A stretch of 63,890 nucleotides of DNA, counting the filler, from Hausera hauseri (lineage: Eukaryota): the NCBI GenBank assembly GCA_046269625.1. It is 11 parts of 11 records of this genome, joined end to end, with 100 filler letters (N's around TTAATTAATTAA, not from the genome) between each part and the next. Parts side by side here need not be neighbours in the genome. Positions count along the whole stretch, not along the records: positions 1 to 9,461 come from JBJURY010368815.1; 10 more parts are not named here. One strand, written 5' to 3'. The notes below the pieces were generated by a model that saw only the letters and a list, made by a program, of their open reading frames with translations, did not search any database and had not been told where the DNA came from. The translations under genes were made by a program, and so were the position numbers. How positions within the stretch are numbered: position 1 is the first letter of the stretch; each line of letters starts with the position of its first letter. This document shows positions 1 through 63,174 of the stretch, piece after piece.

Positions 1-224
1 TGTAGTTCCGTGTTGATCTATCTGTAAATAGTTTTGGAATTTGGGATCAGGACGGTTACGTATTTCTGAAAAAATCCGTCGATGCTAAGTCGGCTCATTT
101 TCGGGTCGATCTGATTATTTACTAATCTGAAGAAGAAAACATAAAGATTAATCTAAAAACAAAGTGTGGTTTTAAATCAAAACAAATTCTTTGTTTGATG
201 ACAGAATAACCTGATCTGTAATTG

Positions 225-863
225 TCAGGTTATTTTATCATAGGGGTCTACAGGGTTTTCCACCTCCCTTAATTCCCATTCTGTATTTTTAGGGCGTTTA
301 GAATAATAATTTTTGGTAACTAACCGAACAATCGCAGTTAATAAAATGAGAACAAATGTTGACGATGCGATAATGGATACAATCGGTAATGCGCTTAACC
401 ATATTGGTACTTGTGTGGTGGTTGGAGTTGTTGTCATCTTCGATATTTTCATACAATGTCGATCTCGTACTGATTTCGCCCAGGGTATGTACCGTAATTG
501 TTTGGTTATGCTTATTCTCTGTATATACTTGTACTATGTAATCGGTTGTAATAATTTATTATCTTCCTGTTTTTGTATCTCTTCGACTGTTGGTTTCTTT
601 TCCGTTTTAACAACTTCTAATCTTGATCCACTCTTCCGAATTCCGTATACATCTCCTAGCGTAGATTCATCGTGCCACCATTGGGTGTGTACCCTCGGCA
701 CATAAGAAGCAATCATCGATAATGCTAGAACTATCTGAACGTATGATATTGGCCTAGAAACTATTGATGTAGTTTTTATCTCGCGTTGGCGTAGGTTGTA
801 ACGTTTATTGGGCCGTCTCTGTCCTGACGACTCTTTGTACCGACACGACTTCTTCCTTTCCAT
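225..863 (-). pseudogene. Small type-I membrane protein at the env position, downstream of a Gypsy integrase
   Basis: ORFs 534..863 and 225..452 share a frame, with one stop at 534-536. They give RYNLR, a signal-like ISYVQIVLALSMIAS, a Thr-rich stretch, a TM segment LPIVSIIASSTFVLILLTAIV and a tail ending YDKIT. Confidence 0.55.
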
Positions 864-1610
864 TTTTATTGATATATACTGTGGTTGGTGTAACTCTGGT
901 AACTTCGTACGGTCCTCTGCCTGTACGAGTCAATTTTAATGAGGTGCCTTTCCTGACTACTCGATAATGTACATAAACCAAATTTCCTTGTTCTAAACAA
1001 TGTTGTTTCGCTTTCCTATCGTATTGCTTTTGAACTGCTCTTGATATTCTTGAGATAACTCCTTGGCAATTTTCCAACATTTCTGTAATCGCGTCTGTAG
1101 CACTTCTGCCAAATTCTGTTCTAAACATTTGGGATTGACTGTATACGGTGTCATTCCTAAATCTGTGGGTAACACGGCTTCGCGTCCGTATATCATAAAA
1201 ATGGTGTAAATCCTGTCGTCGGGTGTGGTGTGGTATTAATTGCAAATTGAGTTCCTTCTAAAAATTCGTCCCAATATTTCTGGTCCTTAGCTACAACTGT
1301 TGATAATATGCGTATGACAGTTGCATTCATACGTTCGACCATTCTATTACACTGAGGGTGATATGCGGTAGTTGTTAGTCGTTCGATTTCAAATATCTTG
1401 GTAATTTTCTCGAAAAGTTCGCTGGTAAAATTTCTTCCGCGATCCGTTAATGTTTGGTCGGGTGGTCCGTATCGGCAAATAATTCTTCTTACTACGGCTT
1501 CTGCCAGGGTTTCTGCCTTTTGATCAATTAATGCTGTCAACTTGACAAAATGAGTTAATCGATCAATAGAAGTTAAGATATATTTATTGTTCTTGTGAGT
1601 CGTAGGACTT
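805..1610 (-). pseudogene. Ty3/Gypsy integrase core and GPY/F C-terminal domain; frameshifted, N-terminus missing
   Basis: NKYILTSIDRLT, LTDRGRNFTS, TTAYHPQCNRMVERMN, NTTPHPTTGFTPF and GRGPYEV motifs. Confidence 0.93.
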
Positions 1611-1887
1611 GGATTGTCGACACAAGTACCGTCGAGATTGTCTAGAAAAATTGACGTTAGAAAACAAGAAAACCACGTGTCCTGTGTGTAGGGCAGAAGC
1701 GACGGACTTGAAGTATTACTCAAACGGCAATTATACCAGAGTGGACAGAATAAAACCCCATTTTAGCTACGAGTTGGAGACTAATCCTAAAGAGAATCAA
1801 ACCAATTCAAGTTCGGGACCCAGCTTAAGACAGCGTATGGATTTATTACGGACAAACCGTTCAGACAAACCTCTCCTGAAGCAATAG
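1609..1887 (+). pseudogene. C-terminal half of a RING finger at the 3' end of an LTR element
   Basis: LDCRHKY.RDCLEKL...TCPVCR. The first CxxC is lost at the junction near 1610. Confidence 0.7.
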
Positions 1888-1915
1888 GCACATCCGAGGG
1901 TGCTGCTCAGGGAGA

Positions 1916-2857
1916 TGTTGGAGAACAAAAGTCATAGTCAACTGCAGTAGAGACCAATATAGTAGCTGGTCTATTGTTGAAATTAATAGCAAGATTAAGC
2001 AATAACAAAAGCTGTAAATAATATTAATGTGAATAATTTATGTATATAGCAATAATATAAACACAGAAAAAGCAAAGTAAACCGTTGTAAATGATATTAC
2101 TGTTATAATAACGGTATCATGCAATAGAGAAATGGCAAAATTTTAAATAGTCAAAATGGCAAATTTGTACATAGCGAATTAGCTGATATATAAAATTGAT
2201 TAAACAGAAGATTGTAAAAATTCAATATTACTAGAACGAAATATTAACTAGTTTAATTACCATTGATAAACTACAAATGTCAAAATTTCGGAGATATTAA
2301 TTATTGCTCGGACGAATTATCGGCATTAAAATAAATCAAATCATTGAAATTGAAAGAAAAACGTAGGCGAATAGAAATTAGCTGAGCTGATAGAGCTATA
2401 TAAGGCTTACAAAATCGTGGCAAAATCAGAAAAATTTTTGGAGTCTAATTTAATGCGTATTATTGTGTTGAAATTAAAGAAAATCCAGAAGACTGTTCCG
2501 AACCGACAGACGTCGATTTACGAATTTGAAAGACTTTGTAACGTATATATTTGATCGATACCGTGTAGAATCAATTGGTAATTGTCTTATTAATATAATC
2601 TGTTGTATTTAAATTTCCTCATAGTTTTTCCTTCGCCCCTTAAGGGTGGTTAGAAGTCATTAAGGTTAAAATCTACATGTAAACTATATAGTTGAGAGAT
2701 CTTGAAATCGATAGCACAGGACCGCACGCATATACTCGCACAGATTTTAAAATCGTTAAGGTGCATTCTGTCTACACGATAACGGTAGACCGAACTGCAT
2801 AGCAAAATAAATTCGAGTGAAACTATTGTTATATAGTGGGAGACGTATAGGGCGACA
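1916..2857 (+). repeat. Probable LTR of about 940 bp
   Basis: Non-coding AT-rich block. It starts TGTTG after a short purine run (AGGGAGA) and ends CGACA, 2 nt before a PBS. The 5' boundary is inferred and no second copy is present. Confidence 0.6.
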
Positions 2858-2859
2858 TT

Positions 2860-2877
2860 TGGCGACCCTAGCAGGAC
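2860..2877 (+). promoter_or_regulatory. Primer-binding site, probably tRNA-Arg
   Basis: TGGCGACCCTAGCAGGAC follows ...CA-TT. It resembles the tRNA-Arg PBS (TGGCGACCGTGACAGGAC type) of 412/mdg1-like elements. Confidence 0.75.
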
Positions 2878-3258
2878 AGTTTGTACATTGCTAGACTTTA
2901 CTTATCAGAGTTAAATAATTATATACAGGCGAACAGCGCCATTACATCGAGTAACTGGACTTATTCAGAATCGGAATTTAAAATTTGGGTATATAGGCTA
3001 TTTTTACGGGAATAAGTAAACAAAACTTAATTGAGAACAAACATTGATAGGTAAGGAATAAACCATATATTAAAAGACAATTCACCTATATGTGAAACGC
3101 TTAGAAATATATACAGCGAAACCGAAAAAGTAGATAGACGTTCAAATTCCGAGAACAGAACTCAACTAGACGTCACCGAGCATAATAAGCAATTTACAAT
3201 CCCACGCAAAAAACCTAAACTGAACAAAGCAAACGCAGAAATAAATAACGTAAATAAT

Positions 3259-4320
3259 ATGGCAACAGATAACCCTCCAGTAGCGCAGAAACTAGATATA
3301 TTCACTTTTGACTCTCTAAACCTGCCGGCATATGACGGAGACCCGGACGGGCTCAATGAATTCTTGAGAACTTATAAATGACATGCAGAAGGTGCTAGCC
3401 TCACTCCTGAAGTAATGATAAAACGTTTGTCATTATATTTGAAAAATCTAGCCGCAGATGCTTATAGCGAACTCACTAATATGGAAAAGAAATCTTGGTC
3501 CTCCCTGGTAGGAGCATTAAATCGCAAATTGTTGCCGACCGTAACGCCGTAACAAAAGCTTATGGCATTTCAGAACCGAGTACAGCAAAAGGGTGAATCG
3601 GTAACTCAATTCGCATTTGCGTTAAAGAAGCTTGCTAACAGTTACATTAGTACATTAAGGATAGCCAACGTAGCGAAAGACAAGACAGAGGCGGAACGTG
3701 ACTCCGCAGAGAAGGCCTCACCACCGGATTTAGATGTTATGATGACAACGCAACTAATAAATGGTATTTGGTCGCTAGACTTAGTTAAACAGTTGATTTC
3801 AACTAGACCCAAGAATTTTGGAGAAACGTTGCGATTAGCTCAAGACTTAGAAATGGCGCTAGATAGATACGCCAGGCATGATATAAACGATAGAAACAAT
3901 GATCACAATGACCTTAATGATAGAAATCGCAACAATAATCACGGAAGAGATGACGGACGATTTACAAGTAACAGAAATTATGGACATAGAAAGAATAATG
4001 GCGGTTAAAGAAATGGCAGAGGTGGTAATTATACTAATACGAACAGATCCGACTCTAATTGGGATAGGAGTAAAGGAAACTATAAAGGTCCGAATTATTT
4101 GAATCAAAACGGCGCTAATCGAAATAATGATAACAGACGAAGTACGGACATCGCGCAAGGCGTGTCAATCCAGTATAACCAAAGCACAAATAGATCTACG
4201 TCACCAGTAAACGAAGACGGTATACAAAGAGTCGGCAGAAACGGAAACTTAGTTTGTTTTACCTGCGGCAAAGAAGGACATATTTTAAGGTCATGTCCCA
4301 ATCCGCGTAGCGTTTCATTT
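3259..4320 (+). pseudogene. gag: Ty3/Gypsy-type Gag: capsid, Asn/Arg/Gly-rich linker and CCHC zinc knuckle, with in-frame stops
   Basis: One frame from ATG 3259: LPAYDGDPDGLNEFL, YLKNLAADAY, QQKGESVTQFAFALKKLA, CFTCGKEGHILRSC. Confidence 0.9.
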
Positions 4321-7300
4321 ACTGAACCAAATAAGACCAGTATGATTAGAATCAATGAAAATCTAGAAGCAAAATATGGTGTTTGTGGGGAAACAGGAAC
4401 TATCATTGATATACAGGACTTGAGAAATTTTTTAGATGATCAGCCGGATACTATGAACTTACAAATTTTGATGACTAGAAGAGAATACGGAGATAAGTTG
4501 AGATTATTAGAAGTATACCATAGCTTAGCAGAACCAGAAACTGAATATGAACACACGATAGCCCATAAATGCAGTGATATAACACGAAGAGTGTTCCGAC
4601 AAACAATAAGCCATCTGATAAACCAGGCACATCTACGGCAGTCGACTTAGACGCAGAGCCTGAATTTACAGTCGAAAAAGTAGCTAAGCTTACTGAGGAC
4701 GATGTAGAAGAAAAAGAATTTATGGAACCATTAATACTTAAAATTGCGAAGAATAGAGGCCGTAGCCCTTTACTAAAAACCAAACGTAGGAGTCGTTCAC
4801 GCTCCAAAATAACCAGAGAGAAAATTGAAGAAACGGAAAACCCGAACGTCGTTGTAGGAGGCGTCACGGATTATAGTTTGGATACACCGGAAATTGGTTC
4901 ACATACATCTACCGGAGTACCGGAACCGATAGAGCTAATTAATGACTTTAACGAGATCTGCCCACTTCTCATTAGTGAGGAAGAGACAACAAATAAGGAC
5001 GTTTTCGATCCCAAGAAGTGGAAAGTCCGACACTCCTGGAAAAATGCGAATGAATTAAGGAAATTGAAAAACAAACTTTATGAGTCAGAAATCTTACAGT
5101 GTGATCTAGAAAGGCTTAAACAAATTAGCGAACAGGTGGATATATCCGGAAAAGTACAGCAATACGCTGAAAAGTTATATAAAAGTTTAAAACTGCGTCG
5201 TGAGGGAAAGTTTGCTGAGGCAATCGACCTGGAACAATCCGAAGAGGTATCAGCCGAAACGTTGTTAAAATGGAAGCGGGAATTAGAATTGTGGATTAAA
5301 AGCGGGTTAGAATTTTCAGAAGGATGGAATAAAAACGAAGATAGGTTTGACGTAAAAGTCACTAAAGCTCAGACATTGCTGTCCACTTTAGAAGCAAACC
5401 CGAAATTAAAGAGAGCAGCTCGCAGTTTAGAACGTATGATGGATGAAATTCGCCTTGAAATGATTCGCCGGCTCAGGGAAAAACCGGTTAACCATCGAAG
5501 TAATATCGACTTAGAAATATTGGGTATAGACCTAGTAGATATTCCTCCCTTAATGGAGATGATTGAATTCACGTTCGCCGTACCTAGACAATATACGAAT
5601 TTAGAGAGTCGTATTAAAATAGAAAATGAAATACAAGCACAGATTTATAGTTTGAGAAATCGAATTATGTTCCCAAACAACGAGGATACTCAATATACAA
5701 TTAAGACTTGTATCGTAGAATGGGACGAGTATAGGGATGAGTTCAGTTATGTCGGTCGAGTTATGAATTTCCTAAAAGCACCAGATGATGAATTAGAAGA
5801 TGCTTATAAGATGCTAGATAAAACTATAATGGCGAAACCTGTAATCGCAAATCAACTGTCGGAATGGTCCGAATTAGTAACGCGACTAACCAAATTAGTA
5901 GAAGATCGTAAAACAGAATTTCCGCAAAGCGAGCCAACGGTGAAGAAGCAACTATAAGAAAGTGCACACGATTTAGCCACGTTGCGGATAGAAATAGACA
6001 TCCGTACTCAATTTGAAGCGCTACGACGACTAAAATTTATGAAAAAGGAACGGGAAGCGTCGATGATGGAGGAAATATACAAATTGATCGAAGAGACGAA
6101 CTTTACGGAGAAACGGAATATGATTTACAATGTAAATTCAAAGTTAAAGATTGTCCGGCTAGAAGGGATTCAATATTTAACCGAGAAACCAATCGACAAA
6201 ATTTCTGTACCAGACATTAAAATCTTGGACATTTGTCCAGAATATCGAGATACGTTAACGGATGCAATAAGGTTTTTACACAAACCTCAAGAATGGATGG
6301 CCGGATCAGACCAGAATTTCCATACCAAGTTGATAGAAATCGGAAACGACCCACATTTTAGCTTTCAGGAACACAAGTTTGTAAAGAAATTGTCGGATGC
6401 AATGGACCCTGATTCAAAGGTTATTAGTGGAAATGGCAGAAACCAGTGATGAACAGATGAGGCAGTTGATGCCCAAGATACAGAAAGGAGAAGAAACATG
6501 TATCAAGACAAAACAAAGAGAGACAAGGTTAGATGAAATAACAAGAGCTTGGAGTCTATCGAAACAAATATGCTTTTACCGAATCCGAGATTAAGAATAA
6601 ACGAGAATTTTTACAAAGATGGCAAAAAGATGTGATTCTTGAATTGACAGATTATCACCAGAAACGGCTGGTTGGCCCGAACGAATTGGGCGAATTACTG
6701 AAAATGATTCAGTATGCCTGTGGAAATGGACTAGGTTTCCAAACTACGCAAATGAAAGAAATACAACCTAGATTAAAGGAAATTCGGGAAAACATTCAGA
6801 GCCAATGCGGCTTTAGTGGACTATCGACTCCCGGATGACGGAAACGAACCCAAATGGTATGCATACTTCGACGAAATACTTGCCGGAAAATCTATGACTC
6901 CAGTACAGCTAAACGAAATAGAAACATGTCCGCAGGACAGGAGATTCAATGTGGAGATGCTACTAGATTCAGCGCTAACTGAAGAAGATTTGATTGAGCT
7001 AATTAACGTAAACATTACTGAGAGTAAATTAAGACAACTTATTCCAACTTTAACTACACTATCTAGCGAAAACACGATTTATAGTACGGTGCCGAAACTT
7101 TTGATAAGGAAGTACGCTAAGATCTTGAGGGCTAAACCTGCGGTGACGATAAAGGTAATGGTGTCATCCGAATAGATGGACGAAAAAGAATGCAAGTTGA
7201 CTACATATTCCTACGTAAAAAATATAAGAGAATGGCTAATAAACAATCGTGGAACGAACGAGTTAAACTACAGATTATATTTTAGAGGTAGAATACTCGA

Positions 7301-8092
7301 TGAATTAGAACAACTAACAGACGTCGGGATTATTCCTGACGAAACAAATCGGATAGTAGTAGTAATAACTAACGAACAGACAAAAGAAGAAGCTACACGT
7401 AAAGCCAAAACAGAACAATGCGTAGGACAAATCATGGGAGTTCGAGACGCTGAACTATATTTTGAGTATTTGCAAACGGACAAAGATAATGAACAATACA
7501 ACGTAAATCTAGTACCACTAAGTGAAACAACCATTAAGGCTTTAAGACTGAAACGTCTAGTAGACAGACCTAGAAAACTGCGAAAAGAAGTGGATTACAA
7601 CGGAGAATTAATTAAAGAATTGATACAGATGTCGATTCCGACTCTTAGCCCAGATAACGAGGAATTAGGCGAGTTAATGAAAAATTTAATACGAATTGTG
7701 AATTATTCTAGCTTTCGAGGGGATGTGTTAAATGATAAAGAAAAGATAATTTTAGATGCAGCCAAATGACACGAAGTTTGCCTTTCAAACTATCGAAAAG
7801 TAATTTAACTGATGAATCGGTAATCGAAAAGATCATGGTAGGAAATACGAATAAAGAACTGAGAAAAGTATTGCTATACTTAGTAGTCAAAATAAATCCT
7901 AATCGAAAGAATGAAATCAATCGGGCTATAAGCTTAGCACGGAGAGCAGCAAGAAGAATGCCTTGCGAAGTAAATTGGGCGAGACTATTTGACAAGGAAG
8001 AAGGCAAACGAAACAATAATAAACTCGACGATATGTTACGTAACCTGACGGCGACAAACGCTGGAGGTCGAAAAATGAATCGAATTGGCTAA
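4321..8092 (+). pseudogene. Large charged, predicted alpha-helical region of unknown function in place of pol
   Basis: Chain of abutting ORFs broken by stops and frameshifts; the part from ~5460 on is conserved in the paralog at 25657-28340. I saw no D(T/S)G protease, YxDD or DDE motif. Confidence 0.7.
7143..7366 (+). other. Internal ubiquitin-like (beta-grasp) domain without a terminal GG
   Basis: VTIKVMVSS..EKECKLT..YVKNIREWL..YRLYFRGRILDELEQLTDVGI..RIVVVI parallels ubiquitin [20 protein letters not shown]. The paralog has KLYFRGKILD. Confidence 0.65.
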
Positions 8093-8097
8093 TTAGT

Positions 8098-8670
8098 TTG
8101 CTTACCTTAATGATGCTAATCAAGCATATAAGTGCGGTAACCGTCTATGATTGCGATAAGTTTAAACTAGGACAGAGATATTCGTTAATGGATCTGGAAG
8201 TATGCCAGGATGCCAGACCGCACAAATTAGGAACGACAGAACAAAGTTACTTCCTATATCAACAACAAGAATTGATATCGTTAGACGGAATGGAGTGCAT
8301 GCTGAGACGATCGCGTAGTATCTTCCACTGTGGACTAATACACGGACATTCCTCCATAATTAAGCCAACCACTCCGCTTATCCCAATGAATTTAGAACGC
8401 CAACACTGTAAACAAGCTAAAGAGAACGGAAGGGTACAATGGGACAGTATGCAATTAAAAATGCAACCAGGAAAGATAATCAGAGCATCTAAAGTAGTAG
8501 CTGGAAGGTTCGATATGCATAGCGAACATTGTAATGGAGCAGAATACGATACCGGAAAAGGATTAGAACCAAACGTGGTAGTTGTGGATTTCTATGAATC
8601 AGAAATGCGATCACAAAAGGTAATGTTCCATAGTGTAACTAAGTTATACACTGAGAATTAAAAATGCCAT
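8098..8670 (+). pseudogene. env: Chuvirus/jingchuviral-like (class III) fusion glycoprotein, N-terminal part
   Basis: Signal peptide followed by VYDC...YSLMDLEVC...ECMLRRSRSIFHCGLIHGHSS, the typical N-terminal pattern of chuviral G. Confidence 0.8.
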
Positions 8671-9461
8671 TTTTAAAATTAAGAACAGACACATGTAATA
8701 AGTGTAAATATTTAGAGGAAAAGTCAGTTCAATAGTTAAATAAACTGGTGTGACTTAATGTCAGCTTGCTATTCAGTTATTTGTGGCATGTGCTTGTTGT
8801 CCTATGTCAGTTATTGCAAATCCATCAACCAACCAATTGATAAATGACAACTTTATCTGCATTCTTGCAAGCACAAGCAAAATGACAGATTTAATACAAA
8901 ACGACAGATTTAATACAAAACAGTTGGTGTAACAAGGACACACAAAAATTTATCTCATGAAGAAAAAAAGGCAATTCCTGTAAATCCAATAACAGCTCCC
9001 ACCATGTCAGGATATCATAAAAAACTCACTGGAAAAATAGATATTAAACAACAAGTTGGGCATAAAAAACATAATTTTACAGATACGACAAATACTGTAG
9101 CAGCATTGATATGGCAAAAAAAAGAATTATGTCACGATATAAAATGTGGCATCGGTTTGACACAGATCATTTTAGAAGTATGCAGTAAATCAGATAAGTA
9201 AGTAAATAAATAAATAAATAAATAAAATCATCTCAAGAGGCACCGTCTTCAATGAGGAGGGGACAGAGACTTTTCAGAGTTATAACCTCCAACATCTAAA
9301 CCATAGTCCTCATCATTCAGTTCTTCTCCACCTCTCCTCCCTCTGCTGTCCTCTTCTTCGTCGTCCTCCTCATCCTCTTCTTCTTCCTCCTCCTCCTCTT
9401 CCTTGAAAACGTTCTGGTCCTTTCGAGTCGTTCTGTCCCTCTTGGGCCCTTTGCAGATCTT

Positions 9462-9561
9462 NNNNNNNNNNNNNNNNNNNNNNNNNNNNNNNNNNNNNNN
9501 NNNNNTTAATTAATTAANNNNNNNNNNNNNNNNNNNNNNNNNNNNNNNNNNNNNNNNNNNN
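9462..9561. other. Artificial contig-joining spacer. The others are at 14436-14535, 19428-19527, 25557-25656, 29957-30056, 38047-38146, 42205-42304, 48722-48821, 54098-54197 and 59808-59907.
   Basis: The same 44N + TTAATTAATTAA (stops in all six frames) + 44N block occurs ten times. Adjacency across spacers has no biological meaning. Confidence 0.98.
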
Positions 9562-9909
9562 CTGGATAAACTTTCTGGTGCTCTGCATAAATTAAACGTG
9601 GATTTAAGGTTAAACGAAACGACCGTGCAACAATACTCAGTCGATTTACCAGCGCAAAAAACGAAACTGTTTGATTTTATCGGTCGCGAAATGTCTCATG
9701 TACCCGATGGATATGGTGGTTTAAAGTGTCGACTGAATATCGAGTTACAAGAATACAAGGAAAAAGCCGGTATCAAAAGCCCGATTTGGCGTGTAGCTGA
9801 AGGACATTTTATTTATCAACAAATTTTGTTTTACCGTTCTTCTTCTTCTTTTATTAACCCAATTAACGAGTATAAATATACGTGTAATTTTAATATTGGC
9901 ATAAGAATA

Positions 9910-10377
9910 ATGATAATAAATCATGTACAGATTACCTTAACAGACGAAAATGCTTTTGTACCGAGACGTGTTACAGCAAACAGTGCAGGCTACGATGTGT
10001 TTTCCAATGTCAATACGACAATTCCTGACAGCACAATCAATTGCATAGCGACTGGGATTCGATTGGCAATTCCACCGGTTACTACGTACAACTTTTGTCG
10101 AAAAGCGGACTGGCAAAGCTCGGACTTATGATTGTGGGCGGCGGCGGATTTACACTTTCGTGGTGAAATTAAGGTGTTGCTGGGAAACCAATCCGGGGAA
10201 CCGTATGCTTTTCCCAAAGGCAGTGCAATCGCACAAATTGTTTTTCGTCGCTGTGAAGAGGTGGAATTCAGTGTAATGTCACCGGAACAATGAGGATTGT
10301 TTTGCGTCAATGAATCAAGGCGAAATGAACGCAAAGAATTTGGCTTTGGTGATATGGCCAAGACCATCTGTGTTTAG
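9910..10377 (+). pseudogene. dut: dUTPase, frameshifted
   Basis: SAGYDVFS, ATGIRLAIP, SKSGLA, FRGEIKVLLGN, KGSAIAQIVF and a C-terminal R..FGFG motif. Confidence 0.92.
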
Positions 10378-10451
10378 TTATTGTGATAATAATAATAGTT
10401 AGTTGTTTTGCTTGTGTTATAAACAAAAAATTATTTTGTACGAGATAAGGA

Positions 10452-10899
10452 ATGGCGACAGCATTTATAGATATTGAAGCTTTCCAAGATGATAATTGCC
10501 GGTACGTGATAAAAGAATTATGCACTATAGACGTCTGTAACATTTTCGAACCGCTTGTATACATATTCAAGCCCGGTATTGTATGCAAATACCTGACGGA
10601 AAAAGCGAAAATTACAAATGGATTTTCTTTTTGACATCGTCATGGACTTCAATTTTCTGTGCGACATGTAGTACGGTAGAGATTTGTGATCGTTTTAACA
10701 TTGAAAATACAATATTTTACATTAAAGATCAAATTGGCGGAGAAAAGTTTACACAACTCCATTCACACTTTCAAGAACATCGAACAGCTCGCTCACAATA
10801 GTACCTTACAATATTAGATGTCCGTATCGTGATAATGGACCGCATTGTGCTTATAAAAAATGTCTACGGCTTTGTATTGATTATATTTTATGCAAATAA
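10452..10899 (+). pseudogene. Maverick-associated DnaQ/DEDD-like exonuclease
   Basis: FIDIEAF...YVIKEL...YIFKP...HGL, and a C-terminal C...HCAYKKC motif. Confidence 0.7.
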
Positions 10900-11003
10900 A
10901 TAAATATATTTCTCCGTATAAGTCAGTAGAATAATTCAAACACTATAAATACGGGTAGGAAATAATATTAATCATCATTGAAATAGTTAATCAACTGAAG
11001 CAA

Positions 11004-11456
11004 TTGGAAAATTTTGATGGATTATCAATTTCTGACGTGGTACGATGGTGGCAAGTACGTGATAGTGAGCTGATTGCAAGAGCAGTAAATGAATTTGGAT
11101 TTACAGAAGATTTAGCATCAATAGCATTTTTGACAGCAACAACAGATTTTAGCTCTATAGAAAATTTAATTATTGTGCTAAATCAAATGTACATTCACCG
11201 ATTGTACAATACAAATTACTTTGATACTGTTGAAAAGGTACGCAGTGAATTAACGAACTTGAAAGAGAAAATAATGGACAAAGTACGAGACTGTCAGTTT
11301 ACTTGTGTGCTGTGTAAACAAAGAAAAGTGGATACGGTATTCTTAATGTGCGGCCATCTCGTTATTTGTCAAAGGTGTTCCACCATCAAAGTAACCCGCC
11401 AATGTTTAGAATGTAAATGTGCTATAATGGAAATTGTACATATTTATTACGAATGA
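11004..11456 (+). CDS. UBA-like plus C-terminal RING (IAP/MDM2-type) E3-ligase-like protein lacking BIR domains
   Basis: SELIARAVNEFGFTEDL...FSSIENLI, then a coiled segment, then CVLC...VFLMCGHLVICQRC...CLECK...HIY at the C-terminus. The start is called at TTG. Confidence 0.75.
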   Translation: MENFDGLSISDVVRWWQVRDSELIARAVNEFGFTEDLASIAFLTATTDFSSIENLIIVLNQMYIHRLYNTNYFDTVEKVRSELTNLKEKIMDKVRDCQFTCVLCKQRKVDTVFLMCGHLVICQRCSTIKVTRQCLECKCAIMEIVHIYYE

Positions 11457-11850
11457 CGTCTTCAATAACGGAACAAAACTGTGTTATTGGCTTCCATGAC
11501 GTGGAGGTAATTTTATCTAGTATGTACCATTGTGATATGACACAATACTCTCAACATAATTGTCTATTGTTTACAATGAAAACAAACCTGTATGAACAAA
11601 TTTGACATAAATTTGGGTGAAATTTCATTTTACGTTTGTCCTATTTAAAAAATGTCTTTGGAAAACAATTCAGCAGGCGACAGATCCGCGAGTCTCTAAA
11701 AATTCAATAGTACAGCGAATATTCTTCAGAAATTCCCTGTTGTATAATGGATACAACTTACATTATCTGTGCAACGTTATTCAATTGCCACTGATGCAAA
11801 GAGTCAAAATTAAACCAGTGAAATATGGTTTATTGGTGAAAAAATAATTT
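11453..11850 (+). pseudogene. Small Cys/His Maverick hypothetical protein
   Basis: ATG overlaps the RING stop (ATGA); C....SQHNCL motif; frameshifted. Confidence 0.4.
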
Positions 11851-12544
11851 GGATACAATGAAAGACACAATTAAAAAAGCTGACAGTGATTTGGCGTTGA
11901 GTAACGATATCCGAGATACATCATCGATTTTTTACAAATAAAATATGGCGAAAATTGTCAGTTCACATGGTGGAGAAACAGTAGTAGTAGAAAAAGCAGT
12001 TTTGACAATGGAAGGAACTAAAGGGTACTTGACACTGAAGATCAAAGGATTCAAGGAAAGGAGCGACGTCAAATCCCCAATATGAAAAATGGGGAAGTTT
12101 CCTATTATTTTGCTGACTTACTTTGTGTGCTTTTGTGATTTTAGGTTTTATCCGATCAATAGATATATGTATTTGTGTTACATATTTTGTTTTCTCGTAT
12201 AAGGTTATTGTTTTACTTTTACTTCTATCTTACTTAATAATAATAGGTTAAGTAAGTAACCGAAAACAAAACACAAAAGCCACTGAACAAAGTACATTGT
12301 TAACACTGAAATAAAATGATATATAAAAGATAATTGTCCATAATTGTCAAATTATCCAGACCAGATTGATTTGCCTGTATCTTATCTGATCTGACGCCAC
12401 CGAACGCGTTTTATTTCAACCTCCAATATCCATACGTCTAACTCTTATTTCGCCCCACCAACTTTCACTTATCATCGTTACATGACAAAGCGACATTCTC
12501 ACTAGTTATATATATATATACAGCTGGTGCTCAATTGATTATGC

Positions 12545-14435
12545 CAATATTGCAGCCATCAAACATTTTCTGGTAACGTGCCAAGTCGAGGTAATGCAGC
12601 TCTTACATCCGCAACTTGCTCAGGTCCAATACCACTTGTCCGATGTAACTTGGCCAGTCCAGAGCGACTTCTTCCCTGTTTAACAGCACCACAACCAATT
12701 CATCGGCAATGTACATTGACCGCCGAAACTGTGCTTTACTCGTGTACGTGAACAACCATTTTTTGTTATTGCATAGGAGTACATTGAGCCACTTTTCCAG
12801 ACTCTCCACTGTTTTTTCGTACAGAGAATTGTTTTTCAGCTTGTAGTAGTTCTTTTCGAACTTTATACAAGCTACGGCTCGCTTCACCGAATTTCCATCT
12901 ATGTACGCATTGAATATTGGAGCCTGAGCAAATCGGATTGCACGATTCAGCTGTGTGACGCGTATATCGAGCTGCATGTAGAACAGTATCAAACGCCAAT
13001 GGACCAAGTAATTCAGCTTCGGTTCATGCGTCGTGAGCAGTTTTTTCAATTTTGAGCCTGGCGGACATTGGTTAAGTGGTGCGACCGGTAAATGATCCAA
13101 AACGTCATCAGCTCATCCGGTACCACAAGATCGACCTCCATCAGGTATCCGACTGAGCCTGCCATGCCTGCTCGCGATCGGTTGAACATTATTTCGTCCA
13201 GATCTTGTCTGTTGACTACCCAATCAAATGAACTGTGCGGCAAGGGTTGCGAAAGCGCCCAGCTGTACAGGTTATTGATATAAATATACAGCAGTGCTGT
13301 GATATCGGTAGGACTGACCTGATGCTTGTTGACAAATGTCATGCAGCCGCGAATACCGACATCAAACACTCGGTACATTTCCGGGTCTTGCAGCAACTCA
13401 GTTTGTCGATCCAGTGATATCAAAGCTGACACCCAACTCATTCCCGACCTATCTTCCGCCAGCGTTTTGGTCCGAAATGCTTCGAACACGTCGGCTAATA
13501 AATACACGTCCAGTTTAAGATACTGGAGCATGTAATCCAACATGTTTCTACAGTTCAGTTCTGTGCAAGATTCTTGTGCCATCCCATATTCATCTTTTGC
13601 GATAACTGTCCATCGCGGGGGTAATTCCTCTGCTGTCCGGAGTGTCTCATATGATGTTGCAAATCCGTAGGGAAATATGCCTTTGCTGCGTGCAGTATGT
13701 GCAGGGAACAGCGTCAGTGCTATAGGCACATATGGCAAGGCATTTACCAGCTTTGCTAATGATTCATTGAGAAACTGCAATGAATCAAGGAAGTGTACCT
13801 GGAATCGGTTTGCTCATGCCGAAAGCGATAGGCATTTTTCCTTTGTCGTTGGGATTATGGAGAGTTCTCAGTGCAGAAATCCGTTTATTGTCCATTTAAA
13901 AATATGGTGACAATCATAACCCCTGAATTTATGAAATACTACCGGTAAGAATGGCCGAAAATTCCTTGCCAAATTGCATGAATTACATGCGGCTCCGAGA
14001 TATCGACTGACAAAATGATCATGATCCGGTATGAACCGTTCCAGTGCATGAAACGTTAATATTTTGTGGCACAGGTAACATTCATCTGCGAATTCAAACA
14101 TCAGGTGTTCAACTTCATCTACTCTACCAGGGTGCGATTTCAGTTTCAACTATGGTTTGAAACTGGTGAAAGAAATAGCGTACACAATTCCATCCGTGGA
14201 AAACATAATATTGAGGTTGACCTGCGGCTTTTATTGAGGCAACCAACATACCGACGGCGATTAAAACATGTTTTTGGTCATATATATTATGCCGTGGTAA
14301 GATAGCTTCGATATCGGCATATACTATATATGCCGGACTGTCTGTTTTTGACCAATCAGTGAACCTGTGTTCCTGTTTGACGGGCATGACATACATTGTG
14401 GTTCCTGACTAATTTTGTCTGCACACAGTCACATG
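12545..14435 (-). pseudogene. polB: Protein-primed DNA polymerase B with an endonuclease-VII-like insert; truncated and frameshifted
   Basis: YADIE, CYLC..DHDH..YLGAACNSCNL, FHKFRGYD, KGIFPY, YLKLDVYLLADVFEAFR, NNLYSWALSQPLP, KLKNNSLY and IGQVVLDLSKLRM. It ends before YxDTDS. Confidence 0.93.
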
Positions 14436-19100: not shown

Positions 19101-19427
19101 AAACTGTCGAGATCCTAGCTTATCTCAAGTCTGACGCAGAGCTAATATTAACCACAGATGCCTCTACCGCAGCAGTCAGCGCAATATTGCACCAAATTTC
19201 TACTGACGTCAGCGAGCCTCTGGAATTTTATTCTCGGAATCTTACACCACTAGAAAGTCGTTACTCAACGTTCGACAGAGAGCTCCTGGCTATAGTATTA
19301 GCCGTGAAACAGTTTTCCCATTTGTTAATTGCCAGGTCTTTTACGATTCAAACTGACCACAAACCTCTTTTTCGCATTATGAACATGAAAACTTCCTCAA
19401 CTAGACAACAGCATCATATACCGTACT
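16200..19427 (+). mobile_element. Mag-like Ty3/Gypsy element (UBL-Gag-PR-RT-RNaseH), decayed, copy A
   Basis: Gag LGQQKPSEF and CIYH..F...AKRC; FLIDSGA; SPWASPLH; MPF, YIDD; TTDAS; YSTFDRELLA; TDHKPL. Confidence 0.93.
16283..16515 (+). other. N-terminal ubiquitin-like domain ending KHYGG, copy A (one frameshift)
   Basis: IFSIFIFKNN-IHIHT...ELHTSVLDAT..DFALFSND..DRLCSF..ICVTLQPKHYGG|SDPN. Confidence 0.6.
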
Positions 19428-19988: not shown

Positions 19989-20309
19989 ATGCATAACAAA
20001 TCAACAAATAGTTTGCCACGAGGAACAAACATTAATGATATTCGAACGACGGAAAATAGTGCTTTCATCAACTGGAAATCTCGTGGTACCACTGACAGTA
20101 CGGTACCAGTAATCGGGATAATTGTGAACGGGACTGATCGATTGCAACATGAATCGCTAAAAGATGATGAAAGGACATGCGCTTCCTGCAAGGTGATGAA
20201 GTTAATGCCAAGCAAATTGAATCTACCAGAAATACGTGTCTGTCTCTCCAATCGACGCTCACTGTCACGTGTTGGACTTCGAACCTTCTGGACTAGACCA
20301 TCACAATGA
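19989..20309 (+). pseudogene. Possible fibronectin type III-like fragment
   Basis: LPRGTNINDIRTTENSAFINWK...VIGIIVNG resembles the start of an FN3 domain. Weak. Confidence 0.25.
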
Positions 20310-20389
20310 TCCAATGGACGTACTGCCAGTCAATAGCAACCTCCGATTGACCGCCAGACATTCCATCGTCAGAGGCATCCAAACACAGG

Positions 20390-25656: not shown

Positions 25657-28600
25657 AATAGTCGAACGACTCAAGGAAAAGCCGGTCAAAGAACAAAATG
25701 AAATTGATCTAGAGATGTTAGGCATAGACTTAATAGATATTCCACCCTTAATGGAAATAATAAAAATCACTTCTACCGCAACAAAACAATATGCAAGCCT
25801 GGAAAATCGGATTGAAATTGAAACCGACAAAGATTGCGAATATGCAGTCTGAGAAATAGAATTATGCAAATAAATAATGACAAAACACAGAAAATAATTA
25901 TGGCTTATATCCTAGAATTCGACGAATATAAAGACTAGTTCGATTACACCTGTCGGGTCATCGATTTTATTAAAGGTCCAGATGATGAACTAGAAGACGT
26001 TCATAAAATGTTAAACAAGGCAATATTGGCAGAGCCAGAAGTCGCTAATCAGTTGAAAGAATGGTCCAAAGTGATAACGAGGTTGAGTAAACTGGTAGAA
26101 AGTCGAAAAAAAGAATTTCCAGAACGCGAGCGTACAGTAAAGAAACAATTAGAAGAAAACGCACGGTATTTAGATACGATGAAGCGGAGATTGACATCCG
26201 GACCCAATTCGATTCATTACGTCGATTAAACTTTATGAAAAAGGAGCAAGAAATGAAGATGCTGGATGATATATATAAAATGATAGAAAAAACAAACTTC
26301 ATACAAAAACGGAACTTGACTTGTGACTTTTATCCAAGATTAAGAAAGGTCCGCTTAGAAGAAATCCAACATTTAACAGCAAAACCCCTCGAGGATATAT
26401 CGGTTCGAGATCTGGAAACTTTAGACATTTGCCCAGAATATCAGTCGACCCTCGAAGAAGTAGTGACGTTCTTACACTACCCACAATAAAGGATGGCCGG
26501 AACAGATCAAAGGTATCATACCGAAGTGACTAAAATAAGGAACGACCACCATCTTAATTTTGAAGAGGCCAAGTTTGTAAAAAGATTGATCAATGAAATA
26601 GACCCAGACGCAAAATTATTAATGAGATATATGAATTAGCACTGCTGATGGTGGAAGTGACAGAAATTAGTGACGAAAAAATAAGACAGTTGTTGCCACA
26701 GATACGACAAGTTGAAAAAACTTGCCTTAAAACGAAACAGAGAGCGGTAAGATTAGACAAACTAACTAAGGAACTCGAAAGTTATAAAAATAAGTATGCC
26801 CTTACAGAAACAGAAAAGGCTGATAAGTCACAATTTGTACAAAAATGGCAAAGAGACGTAGCTTCCGAGCTAACTAATGATCAAGAACAAGGATTTATAT
26901 CAGCCGAAGAATTATGTCAGTTGCTAACAGTATTGCGCCAAACTTCCGGAAACGGACGTTGTTTCCAAACTATGCAAATGGTTACAATGCAACAAAAACT
27001 ACGGGAACTAAGAGAATCAATAAAGGACGTGAACTTAGTCCGGCCGTTAAAAACTCCGAAGATTGATTTCGGACTACCAGAAGACGAAAACGAATGGACG
27101 CGTATCTGAATTCAATAATCGCCGAAAAGCCGAAAACTCCCGTGCACTTGTACAAAACGAAGACGTGTCTACCAGATCAGAGATTCAGTGTGGAGATGCT
27201 TCTGGATTCGGCATAAACTGAAAGGGATCTAATTAAGTCAATCAGTGTAAACCTTACTGGATATCAATTAAGGGAGTTAGTCCCCACCTTAACAAAATTA
27301 GCTAGCGAAGGTACGATTTATAGCGCTGCACCAAAACTTTTAATCAAAGAATATGCTAAATTCTTAAAGACAAGGCCCGAAGAGACAATTAAAAGAAGAG
27401 TAACGTCTGACTCGATGGACGAGAAGGAGCACAAGTTTACTACACATTCCCTTGTGAAGGATGTAGCACTGTGGTTAAGGAGTAATGGTCATACAAATAA
27501 GCTGAACTGTAAACTTTATTTTAGAGGAAAAATATTAGACTAACTGGAACTACAAATAGAAGTTGGAATTATTCCAGACGAATCAAACCGGATAGTGGTA
27601 ACTATTCCTACCGACGAGACAAAAGAAGAGGTCACAAGGAAGGCGAAGACTGAACAATGGGTAGGACGGATTATAGGAGTTCGAGATGCAGCAATGTACT
27701 TCGAATACTTGCAAACAGACCAAGACAAGGCAAAATATAATAAGAATCTAGTACCAACCAGTGATACCGCACCGACTGTAACGAAACAGAAGCGTCTGTC
27801 GGTAGGCTGCGAAAGACACGATAATAAATCGACTATAATGGAGACATGATCAAAGAATTGAGAAAAATATCCATACCGACCTTCAGTGCACATGACGAAG
27901 AACTGAATGAACTTATAAAAAATTGATACATATAGTAAAACACTCCAGCCTCGACAACAATATGTTAGACGAGAAAGAGAAGGCTATATTTAATGCAGCC
28001 AAAGCCATGAAAAATTTTCGATGTAAATTATCCAGAAGTATCTTAAGCGATGAAATGATAATCGAGAAAATTATGGTAGAGAACACTGTGGAGGAATTAA
28101 GAAAAGTATTGCTATATTTGGCTGTTAAAACCAATCCATTCCGAGATAATGAATTCAATAAGGCCCTTTGCTTGGCGAGAAAGGATGCCAGGAAACTGCC
28201 CCGAGAAGTAAACTTGTCCAAATTATTTGAAAAAGAAGAAAAGCGTCAGAATAGGCCCTTCCTTGGAAATAATAAATTTGAAGACTTGTCCCGAAACGTA
28301 GCCGGAAATAATAGAGGAAACGAGCCAAACTGGTTAATTAACTTCTTAACCGTTATGATGTTAATACGACAAATGGGTGCAGTTACCGTGTATGACTGAG
28401 ACAAATTTAAACTTTGCCAAAAATACTCATTACTGGACTTAGAAATGTATGAAGATGCGAGACCACATAAGCTAGAAACAAAAGAAAAAAATTACATGCT
28501 GCACCAACAACGCGAACTAGTTACATTAGACGGAATAGAATGCATGTTGCGACGATCTCGCAGTATTTTCCATTGCGGATTGGTACATGGGCATTCATCA

Positions 28601-29956
28601 GTAATCAAGCCGACAACCCCACCAATTCCGATAAACTTGGAACGTCAGCATTGTAAGCAAGCTAGAAAGACTGGAAGATTAAAATTGGATGGTATGGAGT
28701 TGGAAATGCAACAAGGAAGGATAATGAGAGTATATAAAGTGGCAGCTGGAAGACTAAATATGCACATCGGACATTGTAATGGTGCAGAATACGATACTGG
28801 AAAAGGGCTAGAGTTGAACGTCGTCGTGGTAGATTTTTACGAAACCGAGAAGCGCCTACAAAAGGTAATGTTCCATAGCGTTAATAATCTTTACACGGAA
28901 AACCAGAAGTGCCACATTCAGGATGGCACATGCCCCTTTCGAAGCTCCGTGGTAATTTGGGAACCCCCAGCAAAAACCGATTGAAATTTTATCAGAATTA
29001 AAGAACTTAAGTTTAATGAGACGACATGGAAACGATTCATAAGTAGCATGGAAACTAACTCTAAAACGCGAGAAGATGTGGCCAAACAGTCCACACCTAC
29101 TATATTAATTTCCAATACTCATGGATTGAAATTTGTGAAAAAAGATGCACTCACACGATACGATGTCATAATGTACGCCACCAATTATGAAGCATTCTTT
29201 GTAGCTGAGACGAAAGTAAACGCCAGAACGTTTAAAATCGAGACTCAAGATATTCGAATTGAGGATTATTTGAAAAACAGAGACGACTATTTTTACTATA
29301 AAGGACAAGCTGAAATAGCCGAGTTATATCACAAAATGATAACAAATGACTGCAAATTGGACTTGGAAGTCATGCGGACTAAACTGGCTTTAACATATGC
29401 TAACCCTGAATTAGCATGACCAATAATCCCAATGAAAGAAGGCGTTTTCGGACGAGTAACCGGAGAAGTCCTACTGACCTATGAATGTGAAAAGAAAGAT
29501 GTACCTATTAATGTGGAAGAGAAGAGGTGTATACAGGAACTTCTAGTAATATACCAAGACGTTTGAAGGTTAATAACACCAATTACTAGAGTGTTATTAG
29601 CAAACTCTACCCAACCGACAATTTTGAGAGACTGCAAAACCAGCCTGAGTGAACCAATATTCAGACGTAGCGAAACCGATTGGATAAGTTTACCAAACGG
29701 CGGCATAATTACGCCACCGACCAAGCTAACAGAAACCAACTTAATAAAAGGAATAACCGATGATAAATTTGAAGATACTGCCGCAAAAGAGATTTACCGA
29801 CCAAAAAAAGTAGAGGCGTTCCGACAATTTCTCACTTTTCCCCGTCAACGCACACATGAATTAAACAGAGCGATGCATACAATATTATAGGACTCGCGTT
29901 ATCAAGCGAAGCGGGAATCATTATTCGGTGTCAACTACTACCGAAAAGTGACTACG
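25657..29956 (+). mobile_element. Second diverged copy of the helical region-UBL-chuviral glycoprotein polyprotein element
   Basis: Collinear homology to ~5460-8670, e.g. IDLEMLGIDLIDIPPLME, CPEY, VRDAAMYFEYLQTD, ELRKVLLYL and SRSIFHCG. Confidence 0.9.
28330..29956 (+). pseudogene. env: Chuvirus-like glycoprotein ectodomain of about 540 codons with in-frame stops, cut by the contig end
   Basis: VYD, FHCG..HGHSS, C..QDGTC....IW, LYHKMITNDC, GEVLLTYEC, CIQEL, PITRVL, IY.....AFRQFLTFP. Confidence 0.85.
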
Positions 29957-32188: not shown

Positions 32189-32541
32189 ATTTCTCTTTAT
32201 CTTTCTATCAAAATACAGTTTGTTGTAAGCTTACGCAGTCATGAACCGATAATGAACCTGTGTTGTTAATACGCAAATCCACACGACGTGCGGTTTTTCA
32301 AATAAACAGGGTTCTAAATTTTTTAATGTTGCATACAAACCCTTTTTACAACGTTTCTTTTTATCCTTACCAATTACTCCCAAAAAGACACGATTGTATT
32401 TATTTCCTCTTAAATTTTGACCTCAAATACAGCGCAACGTTTGTTGAATGCTCCAACAATGTACTTTGTCCAAATATTTCCGACATTTTACAATCATACC
32501 ATAGCCAGTACAGTTCCAGTTTCATTCGGCCATGTGATGGA

Positions 32542-34299: not shown

Positions 34300-34452
34300 A
34301 AGTTGAAGAACTCGTCCACAGGAACGTCATGATCGAACACCGCAATTTGTCCGATTACACTCCGTTAAGTTTGGCAGCATCCGGCAGTTACTTCACTGTC
34401 AATATTCTCCATGTCTGGAGTAGTGATGATCAGTCAACGGGCTCAAAATTCG
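34300..34452 (+). pseudogene. Ankyrin-repeat fragment of ANKHD1/ANKRD17/Mask
   Basis: VEELVHRNVMIEHRNLSDYTPLSLAASGSY...STGSK matches the Mask/ANKHD1 repeat EHRNVSDYTPLSLAASGGY...RTGSK. Confidence 0.75.
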
Positions 34453-34559
34453 TCACGATTCTTCACAAAATCCTCTGTAAGTCTCTCGGTAACAAACATT
34501 CGAGAGGTGCCGACGAGACTGGCGTCCATTTAATCAACAAGGATGATCCACTGAGGAAA

Positions 34560-42029: not shown

Positions 42030-42204
42030 ATGTCAGTTAGACGTCGTAGAATGGCTGTATCTGAAGCCTTGAAGATTATTTCGATGCCAGATAGTTCAGA
42101 CGACAATGACGACATTGTCGACGGAGATGAATCCAATGACGAATACTACATCGCAGAGCAGAATAAAAACGTTGATGATGCCATAGATGTCAAAAACAAT
42201 ATCA
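42030..42204 (+). pseudogene. Possible piggyBac-type transposase N-terminus
   Basis: MSVRRRRMAVSEALKII followed by an acidic D/E tract, typical of PGBD N-termini. No catalytic domain is visible. Confidence 0.35.
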
Positions 42205-63110: not shown

Positions 63111-63174
63111 AAATGTAGATTGCACAACAACAAACTGTAAATACCATTCCCATGTCCATTCAGACATTACTGCC

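What the first reader, a model, noticed from the sequence alone, without database searches (positions are those of the whole stretch)
1916..8670. LTR element with Gag, a giant unknown region, a UBL and a chuvirus-like fusogen in one polyprotein, and no pol between gag and env
Seen: LTR, PBS and Gypsy Gag with CCHC, then ~1,250 codons of charged sequence with no recognisable PR, RT, RH or IN motif, then an internal UBL, an internal signal peptide and a chuviral-type glycoprotein. In the independent copy (25657-29956) the upstream ORF runs in frame into the signal peptide (...NEPNWLINFLTVMMLIRQMGAVTVYD). The ancestral product was therefore probably one polyprotein. Established: chuviral G capture is known in BEL/Pao retroelements of insects, but alongside pol. 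Inference: an undescribed retrovirus-like family that is either a pol-less gag+env partner mobilised in trans or has an unusual gag-X-env-pol order.
Basis: partly seen in the sequence, partly recalled or inferred. Interest (0 to 1): 0.88.

Follow-up and report, generated by a model that had tools for sequence, protein, structure and literature searches.

The report
Broken Burro-like giant envelope retrotransposon
This is the decayed front half of a heavily repeated animal retrotransposon whose capsid, ubiquitin-like and virus-type envelope parts likely formed one giant protein with the replication enzymes following behind, a layout already published for the planarian 'Burro' elements, so it is a new example rather than a new kind.

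Summary
The anatomy is real: a TG...CA LTR, a tRNA-Arg-type PBS, Gag with one CCHC, about 1,260 codons with no pol domain, a ubiquitin fold (Z 12.4) and a Monjiviricetes-type glycoprotein, in frame with the upstream ORF in copy 2. The spacer is under purifying selection (dN/dS about 0.05-0.23). 'No pol' is not supported, because both copies end inside env. Of the 17 best glycoprotein relatives, 14 were scanned: 11 carry protease after env in the same ORF, 3 stop within or at the end of env, and none has pol first. Metagenome contig L001 runs UBL, Bcl-2-like, env, PR, RT, RH, IN in one ORF of at least 3,426 aa. An integrase fragment with these relatives' tail lies inverted beside the LTR. The order Gag-UBL-BCL2-env-pol is published for planarian Burro (PMC6431247), and gag-env-pol for flatworms, bryozoans and nematodes (PMC13524379). 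Still open: Bcl-2 identity in this copy, the first ~800 spacer residues, the host phylum and strict Burro membership. The scan noted one other gypsy element with such an envelope in another genome. Verdict: new member of a known kind.

The parts
228..849 (-). Tail after the integrase: Y-x-L-R motif, a signal-peptide-like segment and a transmembrane segment (one stop inside)
   Evidence: Hydrophobic segments at 749 and 383. The same motif followed by hydrophobic segments is in 6 of 6 env-pol relatives with a full integrase; the motif is absent from the pol-env protein P0095.
850..1615 (-). Integrase core and C-terminal part of an env-pol-type element, inverted relative to the finding and cut at about 1610
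   Evidence: Pfam rve 1.2e-10. Relatives' IN profile iE 3.9e-42, its best hit in the window; IN-tail profile iE 5e-13, its only hit. Identity 39-42% to env-pol relatives, 31% to P0095, 29% to the window's other gypsy IN.
1606..1887 (+). C-terminal half of a RING-finger ORF, likely a 3' accessory ORF of the family
   Evidence: zf-C3HC4 1.6e-4, zf-RING_2 5.3e-5. Multi-copy in run X1: 15 contigs at place 1745.
1896..1915 (+). Purine-rich tract (14 of 20) abutting the LTR; PPT-like, weak
1916..2857 (+). LTR, 942 bp, TG...CA; likely shared between the 3' end of one copy and the 5' end of the next
   Evidence: Ends and flanks; no partner in the window
2860..2877 (+). Primer-binding site, tRNA-Arg type
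   Evidence: relative L003 has the same first 8 bases
3259..4650 (+). Gypsy Gag: capsid region, Asn/Arg-rich stretch, one CCHC knuckle at 4255; 3 stops
4578..6983 (+). Unassigned charged, likely helical spacer of about 800 codons
   Evidence: dN/dS 0.14 and 0.23 where copy 2 overlaps. No Pfam, PDB or word-search relative. Language-model lead to dynein heavy chain tail families, score 0.95, not backed by HMM.
6984..7376 (+). Helical module plus integral ubiquitin-like domain (about 7137-7373); no C-terminal di-Gly; one stop
   Evidence: Profile from 6 relatives: iE 1.2e-10, best decoy 3. AlphaFold pLDDT 72-90 by block over residues 31-150. Foldseek E 4.3e-5. VIA Z 12.4, rmsd 1.7 over 75 residues.
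7760..7990 (+). Helical domain at the position of the relatives' Bcl-2-like domain; identity inconclusive
   Evidence: Top window hit of the relatives' profile but only iE 0.26. hhalign score 23.4, probability 12%, reached by 0 of 200 shuffles. No Pfam Bcl-2 hit for either copy. Model pLDDT 48.
8071..8669 (+). Internal signal-peptide-like segment and the first third of a Monjiviricetes-type (gB-like) fusion glycoprotein; cut at about 8670 against low-copy DNA
   Evidence: PF24664 E 3e-16, profile positions 5-177 of 653. Depth falls to about 2 after 8848.
25657..29956 (+). Second, diverged copy: later spacer, UBL, in-frame join to env, env up to the contig end
   Evidence: 66.7% nucleotide identity over 5469-8669. 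PF24664 profile positions 6-504 of 653.

Best explanation
These are two decayed, truncated copies of a highly repeated Ty3/gypsy-type LTR element that likely encoded one Burro-like polyprotein in the order Gag, spacer, UBL, (Bcl-2-like), Env, with PR-RT-RH-IN inferred to follow Env. Shown here: the parts up to env, selection on the spacer, and the in-frame spacer-to-env join in copy 2. Shown in relatives: pol after env in the same ORF, a Bcl-2-like domain before env, and a signal-plus-TM tail after IN. Inferred mechanism: the LTR drives a full-length RNA read as one protein. Gag, spacer, UBL and the Bcl-2-like domain stay in the cytosol. The internal signal peptide sends the class III fusogen ectodomain into the ER, and its TM segment stops transfer so that pol is cytosolic again. 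Signal peptidase and the element's own protease(s) would cut the chain, and tRNA-Arg would prime reverse transcription. The UBL, the Bcl-2-like domain and the 3' RING ORF would likely act on host ubiquitin and cell-death pathways, as reported for Burro1 cargo. The integrase fragment at 850-1615 is most simply the pol end of an upstream copy, flipped by an inversion that also cut the RING ORF.
For: Of the 17 hits at E<=1e-30, 14 were scanned; the 3 left out are 426-492 aa env fragments. Eleven of the 14 have PR after env in one ORF, 5 of them also RT and RH. The other 3 end within or at the end of env, and none has pol first. P0151 (4,844 aa), L001 (at least 3,426 aa) and L003 (2,693 aa) run env-PR-RT-RH-IN in one ORF. 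L002 has Gag-CCHC, UBL (Pfam 2.6e-4), a weak Bcl-2 hit (0.041), one stop, then env. In the env tree, copy 2 sits with all 13 such relatives against 14 stand-alone glycoproteins and P0095 (support 99). The relatives' helical+UBL profile hits both copies. The neighbouring integrase matches this lineage and its tail and is repeated at similar depth in run X1 (4,700-11,400, against 2,900-12,000 over the spacer). The published Burro order matches.
Against: No contig held here joins this family's env to its pol. The gag-to-spacer join is out of frame in copy 1 and absent from copy 2. The Bcl-2-like domain is weak in the window and lacks the GGW motif of the relatives. No BIR or MATH domain was found in the spacer. 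The relatives are only about 27-31% identical in env, and copy 2 is a long branch. The integrase tree was unresolved. No Burro sequence was available for direct comparison.
Confidence: 0.85

Rival explanations
1. A pol-less gag-X-env partner that supplies capsid and envelope and is copied in trans by a separate pol element, for example the one whose integrase lies next door.
For: No pol is seen in either copy. The spacer and env are under purifying selection. The integrase is on the opposite strand with no join to env, and equal depth fits a partner as well as one element.
Against: Both copies end inside env, so pol could not be seen. All 11 of the 14 scanned top relatives that extend past env carry PR in frame, as do P0151, L001 and L003.
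Confidence: 0.07
2. A separate gag-env-pol lineage that gained its UBL and helical cargo independently of planarian Burro. It works alike but is not the same family.
For: GAG-ENV-POL elements are not monophyletic by pol (PMC13524379). This copy has one CCHC rather than 2-3, no BIR or MATH, and no GGW motif. The host phylum is not fixed.
Against: The UBL then Bcl-2-like then in-frame env order is shared with Burro and with P0013, P0017, L001 and L002. The helical+UBL module is homologous across six relatives and both window copies. This rival is compatible with the main architecture and differs only on ancestry.
Confidence: 0.3
3. Rearranged remnants of an ordinary gag-pol-env element, or a chance patchwork of gag, host DNA and a chuviral endogenous glycoprotein.
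For: The contig is rearranged at about 1610 and cut at about 8670, and copy 1 has many breaks.
Against: Two copies 33% apart are colinear over 3.2 kb, with dN/dS about 0.05-0.23 in the frame leading to env and 0.8-3.4 in shifted frames. Coverage by many other contigs is continuous from gag to env. Intact relatives have the same order.
Confidence: 0.03

Closest known systems
Burro / GYPSM1 giant gypsy-like LTR retrotransposons of planarians (as reviewed in Arkhipova & Yushenova 2019, PMC6431247; section 7 read. Jurka 2007 and Grohme 2018 not seen, cited through this review)
   Same: Gag with CCHC, a long cargo region, a Ubi/SUMO-like domain, then env related to mononegavirus fusion glycoproteins in frame. 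Very high repeat number. Relatives here also show BCL2 before env, PR-RT-RH-IN after it, and ankyrin repeats (P0151). A RING is reported in Burro1 cargo (passages of PMC13465017 citing Lee et al. 2026, which was not held).
   Different: One CCHC rather than 2-3. No BIR or MATH found in the spacer. The Bcl-2-like domain is degenerate or unproven. The half RING sits just before the LTR rather than in a BIR-RING unit. Total size, pol and host phylum are not seen.
GAG-ENV-POL errantiviruses with HSV/gB-type ENV in Platyhelminthes, Bryozoa and Nematoda (Chary & Hayashi, PMC13524379; section 14, part 1 of sections 5 and 6, passages and Supplementary file 1 rows read)
   Same: Ty3/gypsy Gag, a chuvirus-like gB-type env ahead of pol, LTR and tRNA PBS.
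   Different: The main text has no occurrence of 'ubiquitin', 'RING' or 'Burro', so the cargo between gag and env is not described there. The spacer here (about 1,260 codons from CCHC to env) is longer than in the relatives with a CCHC (about 220-700). P0013 has over 1,000 residues before env.
Anakin and other BEL/Pao elements with a chuviral glycoprotein (Dezordi et al.; results and discussion of PMC10084718 read; PMC7642597 seen as search listing only)
   Same: Same broad glycoprotein family (PF24664) carried by an LTR element.
   Different: Gag matches the gypsy-type relatives, whose pol profile hits Ty3 Gag-Pol (E 3.5e-19). Env precedes pol and lies in the same ORF.

Membership tests
Burro-like giant gypsy | N-terminal gypsy Gag with CCHC knuckle(s) | tested here: met
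   Gag profile iE 1.3e-18. One CCHC at 4255; Burro has 2-3.
Burro-like giant gypsy | Ubiquitin/SUMO-like domain between Gag and env | tested here: met
Burro-like giant gypsy | BCL2-like domain just before env | tested here: inconclusive
   4 of 4 relatives hit Pfam Bcl-2 at E<=1 (best 7.7e-5); 0 of 2 window copies do. Weak positional homology. Low-confidence model.
Burro-like giant gypsy | Mononegavirus-type env in frame with the upstream polyprotein | tested here: met
   Stop-free frame 27911-28396 runs into the env start; PF24664. Copy 1 has a frame break at this join.
Burro-like giant gypsy | PR-RT-RH-IN after env in the same ORF | tested here: inconclusive
   Both copies end inside env. 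Met in relatives. A lineage-type integrase fragment is adjacent but inverted.
Burro-like giant gypsy | BIR and MATH cargo domains (variable among Burro elements per the review) | tested here: not met
   No Pfam hit or BIR motif in the spacer. This lowers strict Burro1 membership only.
Burro-like giant gypsy | Internal region over 20 kb between paired LTRs | not testable with these tools
   Contigs of 4-10 kb; no genome held.
Burro-like giant gypsy | Very high copy number | tested here: met
   22,078 contigs of run X1 and 1,420 of run X2 lie on 1-9461 at 80% likeness. This shows many diverged copies, not a copy number; X1 may be the window's own source.
Burro-like giant gypsy | Triclad planarian host | tested here: inconclusive
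   A UPF2-like gene is 45-49% identical to the 119 other listed hits and 67% to one unnamed protein. It joins the only flatworm in a 20-row tree (97/94), but as a long-branch pair and with no arthropod or nematode rows.
Burro-like giant gypsy | RT/IN phylogeny within the Burro clade | not testable with these tools
GAG-ENV-POL errantivirus, HSV/gB-type ENV | gB-like (chuvirus-related) env | tested here: met
   PF24664 in both copies. The fold of env itself was not predicted.
GAG-ENV-POL errantivirus, HSV/gB-type ENV | env between gag and pol | tested here: inconclusive
   env follows gag with no pol between; downstream pol is seen only in relatives.
GAG-ENV-POL errantivirus, HSV/gB-type ENV | LTR followed by a tRNA PBS | tested here: met
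BEL/Pao Anakin-type element | Chuviral glycoprotein alongside a BEL/Pao gag-pol | tested here: not met
   Gag matches gypsy-type relatives whose pol matches Ty3. env precedes pol in all 11 of the 14 scanned relatives that extend that far.

The most novel reading that the evidence does not exclude
A two-part retroelement: a pol-less Gag-spacer-UBL-Env branch of the Burro-like lineage that keeps capsid, cargo and fusogen under selection and is copied in trans by a separate pol-bearing partner whose integrase end lies beside it. Its ~800-residue spacer would be a captured dynein-tail-like helical domain.
Probability: 0.06. Interest if true: 0.75.

Novelty: new member of a known kind. Interest (0 to 1): 0.3.

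Why it matters
The layout is known, so the value is modest. Burro1 cargo is reported to protect planarian stem cells from apoptosis (second-hand, via PMC13465017), and that paper calls Burro1 planarian-specific. The relatives found here show that a helical+UBL module, a Bcl-2-like domain and a small membrane protein after IN recur across many diverged gag-env-pol polyproteins (about 30% env identity). If the host is not a triclad, that cargo set is older and wider than described. I did not find the shared helical+UBL module or the post-IN membrane tail described in the ten literature searches run. However, Grohme 2018, Sacco 2022 and Lee 2026, with their supplements, were not held and may cover them.

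Tried and rejected
Hidden pol in 4321-8092: none by Pfam or by RT, RH and IN profiles, which did find the decayed pol pieces elsewhere in the window. The PR profile missed both protease motifs of other gypsy elements in the window (17679 and 36231), so it is insensitive. The motif scan that finds those two finds none in the spacer. Word-based protein searches found nothing for env among 1,195-3,410 aa proteins or for the spacer, although the full HMMER scan found 356 env relatives; these blanks are therefore weak. Viral and prokaryote genome scans found no relative, nor did a metagenome scan with the integrase. Bcl-2 fold: the model had pLDDT 48, no Bcl-2 chain was among the top 50 VIA rows and the Atlas gave only hits under 0.9; none of this excludes it. 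Dynein-tail lead for the spacer: not supported by Pfam or by PDB sequence search; kept as a lead. I first read a purine run at 277-263 (minus strand) as the PPT of a second LTR. It lies inside the coding tail, so I dropped that reading. No RNA holder was listed. The IN tree was uninformative. No earlier scan note matched by place or by sequence.
Full report
Setting. The window is a series of short contigs separated by N spacers, from an animal genome rich in gypsy, Polinton-like and mariner-like debris (the Polinton and mariner labels are partly from recall). No whole genome is held. The finding lies in contig 1-9461. A second copy fills contig 25657-29956 and is 66.7% identical over 5469-8669.

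Observation. The LTR runs from TG at 1916 to CA at 2857, followed by a PBS at 2860 that is closest to the Arg tRNA ends listed in Supplementary file 1 of PMC13524379. It has no partner in the window. Gag is recognised by a profile from four relatives (iE 1.3e-18) and has one CCHC at 4255. The 1,257 codons after it contain no pol by Pfam, profiles or motifs. The RT, RH and IN profiles have positive controls in the window; the PR profile failed its controls, so the PR result rests on the motif scan. The glycoprotein is PF24664 in both copies. Copy 1 covers profile positions 5-177 of 653 and then abuts low-copy DNA. Copy 2 covers 6-504 and ends with its contig. Copy 1 has 5 in-frame stops and 6 frame changes. 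Other contigs of the runs read differently at several of these places, so the breaks look copy-specific.

The spacer is real protein. Between the copies, dN/dS in the frame leading to env is 0.14, 0.23, 0.05, 0.13, 0.12 and 0.11 for six segments. Two more segments (6442-6540 and env) had saturated dS. The shifted frames give 0.8-3.4. Gag and 4650-5468 have no second copy and were not tested. The UBL is solid: AlphaFold block pLDDT 72-90 over residues 31-150, Foldseek hits to ubiquitin-family chains (best E 4.3e-5), and VIA Z 12.4 with rmsd 1.7 over 75 residues. It lacks a terminal di-Gly, so it is an integral domain rather than a conjugated modifier (read from the sequence).

Relatives give the missing half. 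An HMMER scan with copy 2's spacer end plus env gave 356 hits at E<=0.001 and 17 at E<=1e-30. I scanned 14 of the 17 with Pfam; the three left out are 426-492 aa env fragments. Eleven have a protease after env in the same ORF (one only weakly, E 0.0018). Five of these go on to RT and RH, and four to IN. The other three end within or at the end of env, and none has pol before env. Five lower-ranked hits were also scanned: four showed env only, and P0095 has IN before env. P0151 (4,844 aa) adds ankyrin repeats and several protease-like stretches. A metagenome scan gave three loci. L001 has UBL-like, Bcl-2-like, env, PR, RT, RH and IN in one ORF of at least 3,426 aa; its UBL and Bcl-2 labels come from alignment and 70% identity to P0004, not from Pfam. 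Two accessory ORFs follow, one an exonuclease. L002 has Gag, CCHC, UBL, a weak Bcl-2 hit, one stop, then env. L003 has Gag-env-pol in 2,693 aa with a similar PBS. In a FastTree of 29 env sequences, copy 2 groups with all 13 such relatives against 14 stand-alone glycoproteins (every fifth of 68) and P0095, with support 99, though on a long branch. A profile of the helical+UBL module from six relatives hits copy 1 at iE 1.2e-10 and copy 2 at 1.1e-5; the best reversed decoy scored 3. Four of four relatives' pre-env domains hit Pfam Bcl-2 at E<=1 (best 7.7e-5), but neither window copy does. The window's domain at that position is the profile's top hit at only iE 0.26 and beats 200 of 200 shuffles in hhalign at 12% probability. 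It lacks the GGW motif and folds poorly. I call it inconclusive, likely degenerate.

The neighbourhood. Left of the LTR are a weak purine tract, the second half of a RING ORF (1606-1887) and, on the minus strand, an integrase core and tail (1615-228). That integrase is the best window match to the relatives' IN profile (iE 3.9e-42) and the only match to their IN-tail profile (5e-13). It is 39-42% identical to them, against 29% for the window's other gypsy IN. It also continues into the Y-x-L-R motif, signal-like and TM segments seen in 6 of 6 relatives. Its depth in run X1 is of the same order as the spacer's (depth is not a copy number). The simplest account, which is inferred, is two copies sharing one LTR (tandem, or collapsed in assembly), with an inversion in the upstream copy from the IN core to the middle of the RING ORF. 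The IN tree could not confirm kinship, and no contig shows the join.

Mechanism. Confidence is 0.85 for the architecture; the function of the cargo is less sure. One RNA makes one polyprotein: cytosolic Gag and cargo, an internal signal peptide, a lumenal class III fusogen, a TM stop, then cytosolic PR-RT-RH-IN, then a small membrane protein. Signal peptidase and the element's protease would do the cutting. The topology and processing are inferred from domain order and general knowledge of signal peptides. A role of the UBL, Bcl-2-like and RING parts in ubiquitin and apoptosis control is inferred by analogy to Burro.

What is known. Arkhipova & Yushenova 2019 (PMC6431247, section 7 read) describe planarian Burro/GYPSM1. 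It has Gag with CCHC knuckles, Smc-like, MATH and BIR motifs, a Ubi/SUMO-like domain, BCL2, an in-frame env related to mononegavirus glycoproteins, then PR to IN, in a 4,873-aa ORF. [quoted passage not shown] Chary & Hayashi (PMC13524379) report GAG-ENV-POL elements with gB-type env in flatworms, bryozoans and nematodes, and 114 gypsy elements with chuvirus-like glycoproteins in arthropods. Dezordi 2023 (PMC10084718, results and discussion read) found no clear gypsy capture, which the later paper supersedes. Passages of PMC8532177 show BURRO1 is transcribed and PIWI-controlled. Passages of PMC13465017 cite a study in which Burro1's BIR-RING cargo protects stem cells. Grohme 2018, Sacco 2022 and Lee 2026 were not held, and their supplements may bear on cargo and host range. 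The element works like Burro. Strict membership is not established: BIR and MATH were not found, and size, pol phylogeny and host could not be tested or were inconclusive. A UPF2-like gene on another contig is compatible with a flatworm but may be long-branch attraction.

What is left unexplained. The first ~800 spacer residues have no detected relative. The spacer path overall is about one-third charged residues, and one language-model search points to dynein heavy chain tail families at 0.95, without HMM support. The CCHC-to-env distance (1,262 codons) is longer than in the relatives with a CCHC. One earlier scan note (e1-9887218) reached a similar 'already reported' verdict for a gypsy element with such an envelope in another genome; its gene order was not stated in what I saw.

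Verdict. Observation confirmed, interpretation partly supported. New member of a known kind; interest 0.3. The pol-less, two-part reading is not excluded but unlikely (0.06).

Noticed in passing
window 9562-13813 and 54198-63890: Polinton/Maverick-like gene sets: DNA polymerase B, rve integrase, RING ORF (Pfam), with dUTPase-like, ATPase-like and capsid-like frames read by eye. 57040-59749 and 60151-62908 are 80% identical, and 9566-9903 matches 63602-63890.
   Followed up: no
window 32245-33717: UPF2-like gene (MIF4G) with no visible intron over about 390 codons and one in-frame stop; 67% identical to one unnamed protein and 45-49% to the other listed hits. Possibly a retrocopy.
   Followed up: partly
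window 16345-19426, 20221-25330, 34302-38043: Several decayed copies of an ordinary gag-pol gypsy family (66-81% identical to each other), unrelated to the finding's lineage by IN identity.
   Followed up: partly
window 38147-48721: Two contigs of tandem repeats: a 7/14-base pyrimidine-rich unit, and a longer repeated unit with an inverted block near 45249-45483.
   Followed up: no
P0002 (HBK71150.1): A 2,627-aa env-pol retroelement polyprotein is filed as a hypothetical protein of a Flavobacteriaceae MAG; likely animal DNA in a bacterial bin.
   Followed up: no
P0003, P0005, P0151, L001:2-10282: These polyproteins carry several protease-like D[TS]G stretches (3, 3 and 6 motifs in the three proteins), some after the integrase.
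   Followed up: partly
L001:10617-12666: Accessory ORFs after the polyprotein: a 496-codon frame with an RNase_T exonuclease domain (E 1.4e-5) and a 145-codon coiled-coil-like frame. P0011 has an exonuclease-like stretch before env (by eye).
   Followed up: partly
window 49223-50287 (-): Intact 355-codon DXD glycosyltransferase frame (PF04488), likely a host gene.
   Followed up: no
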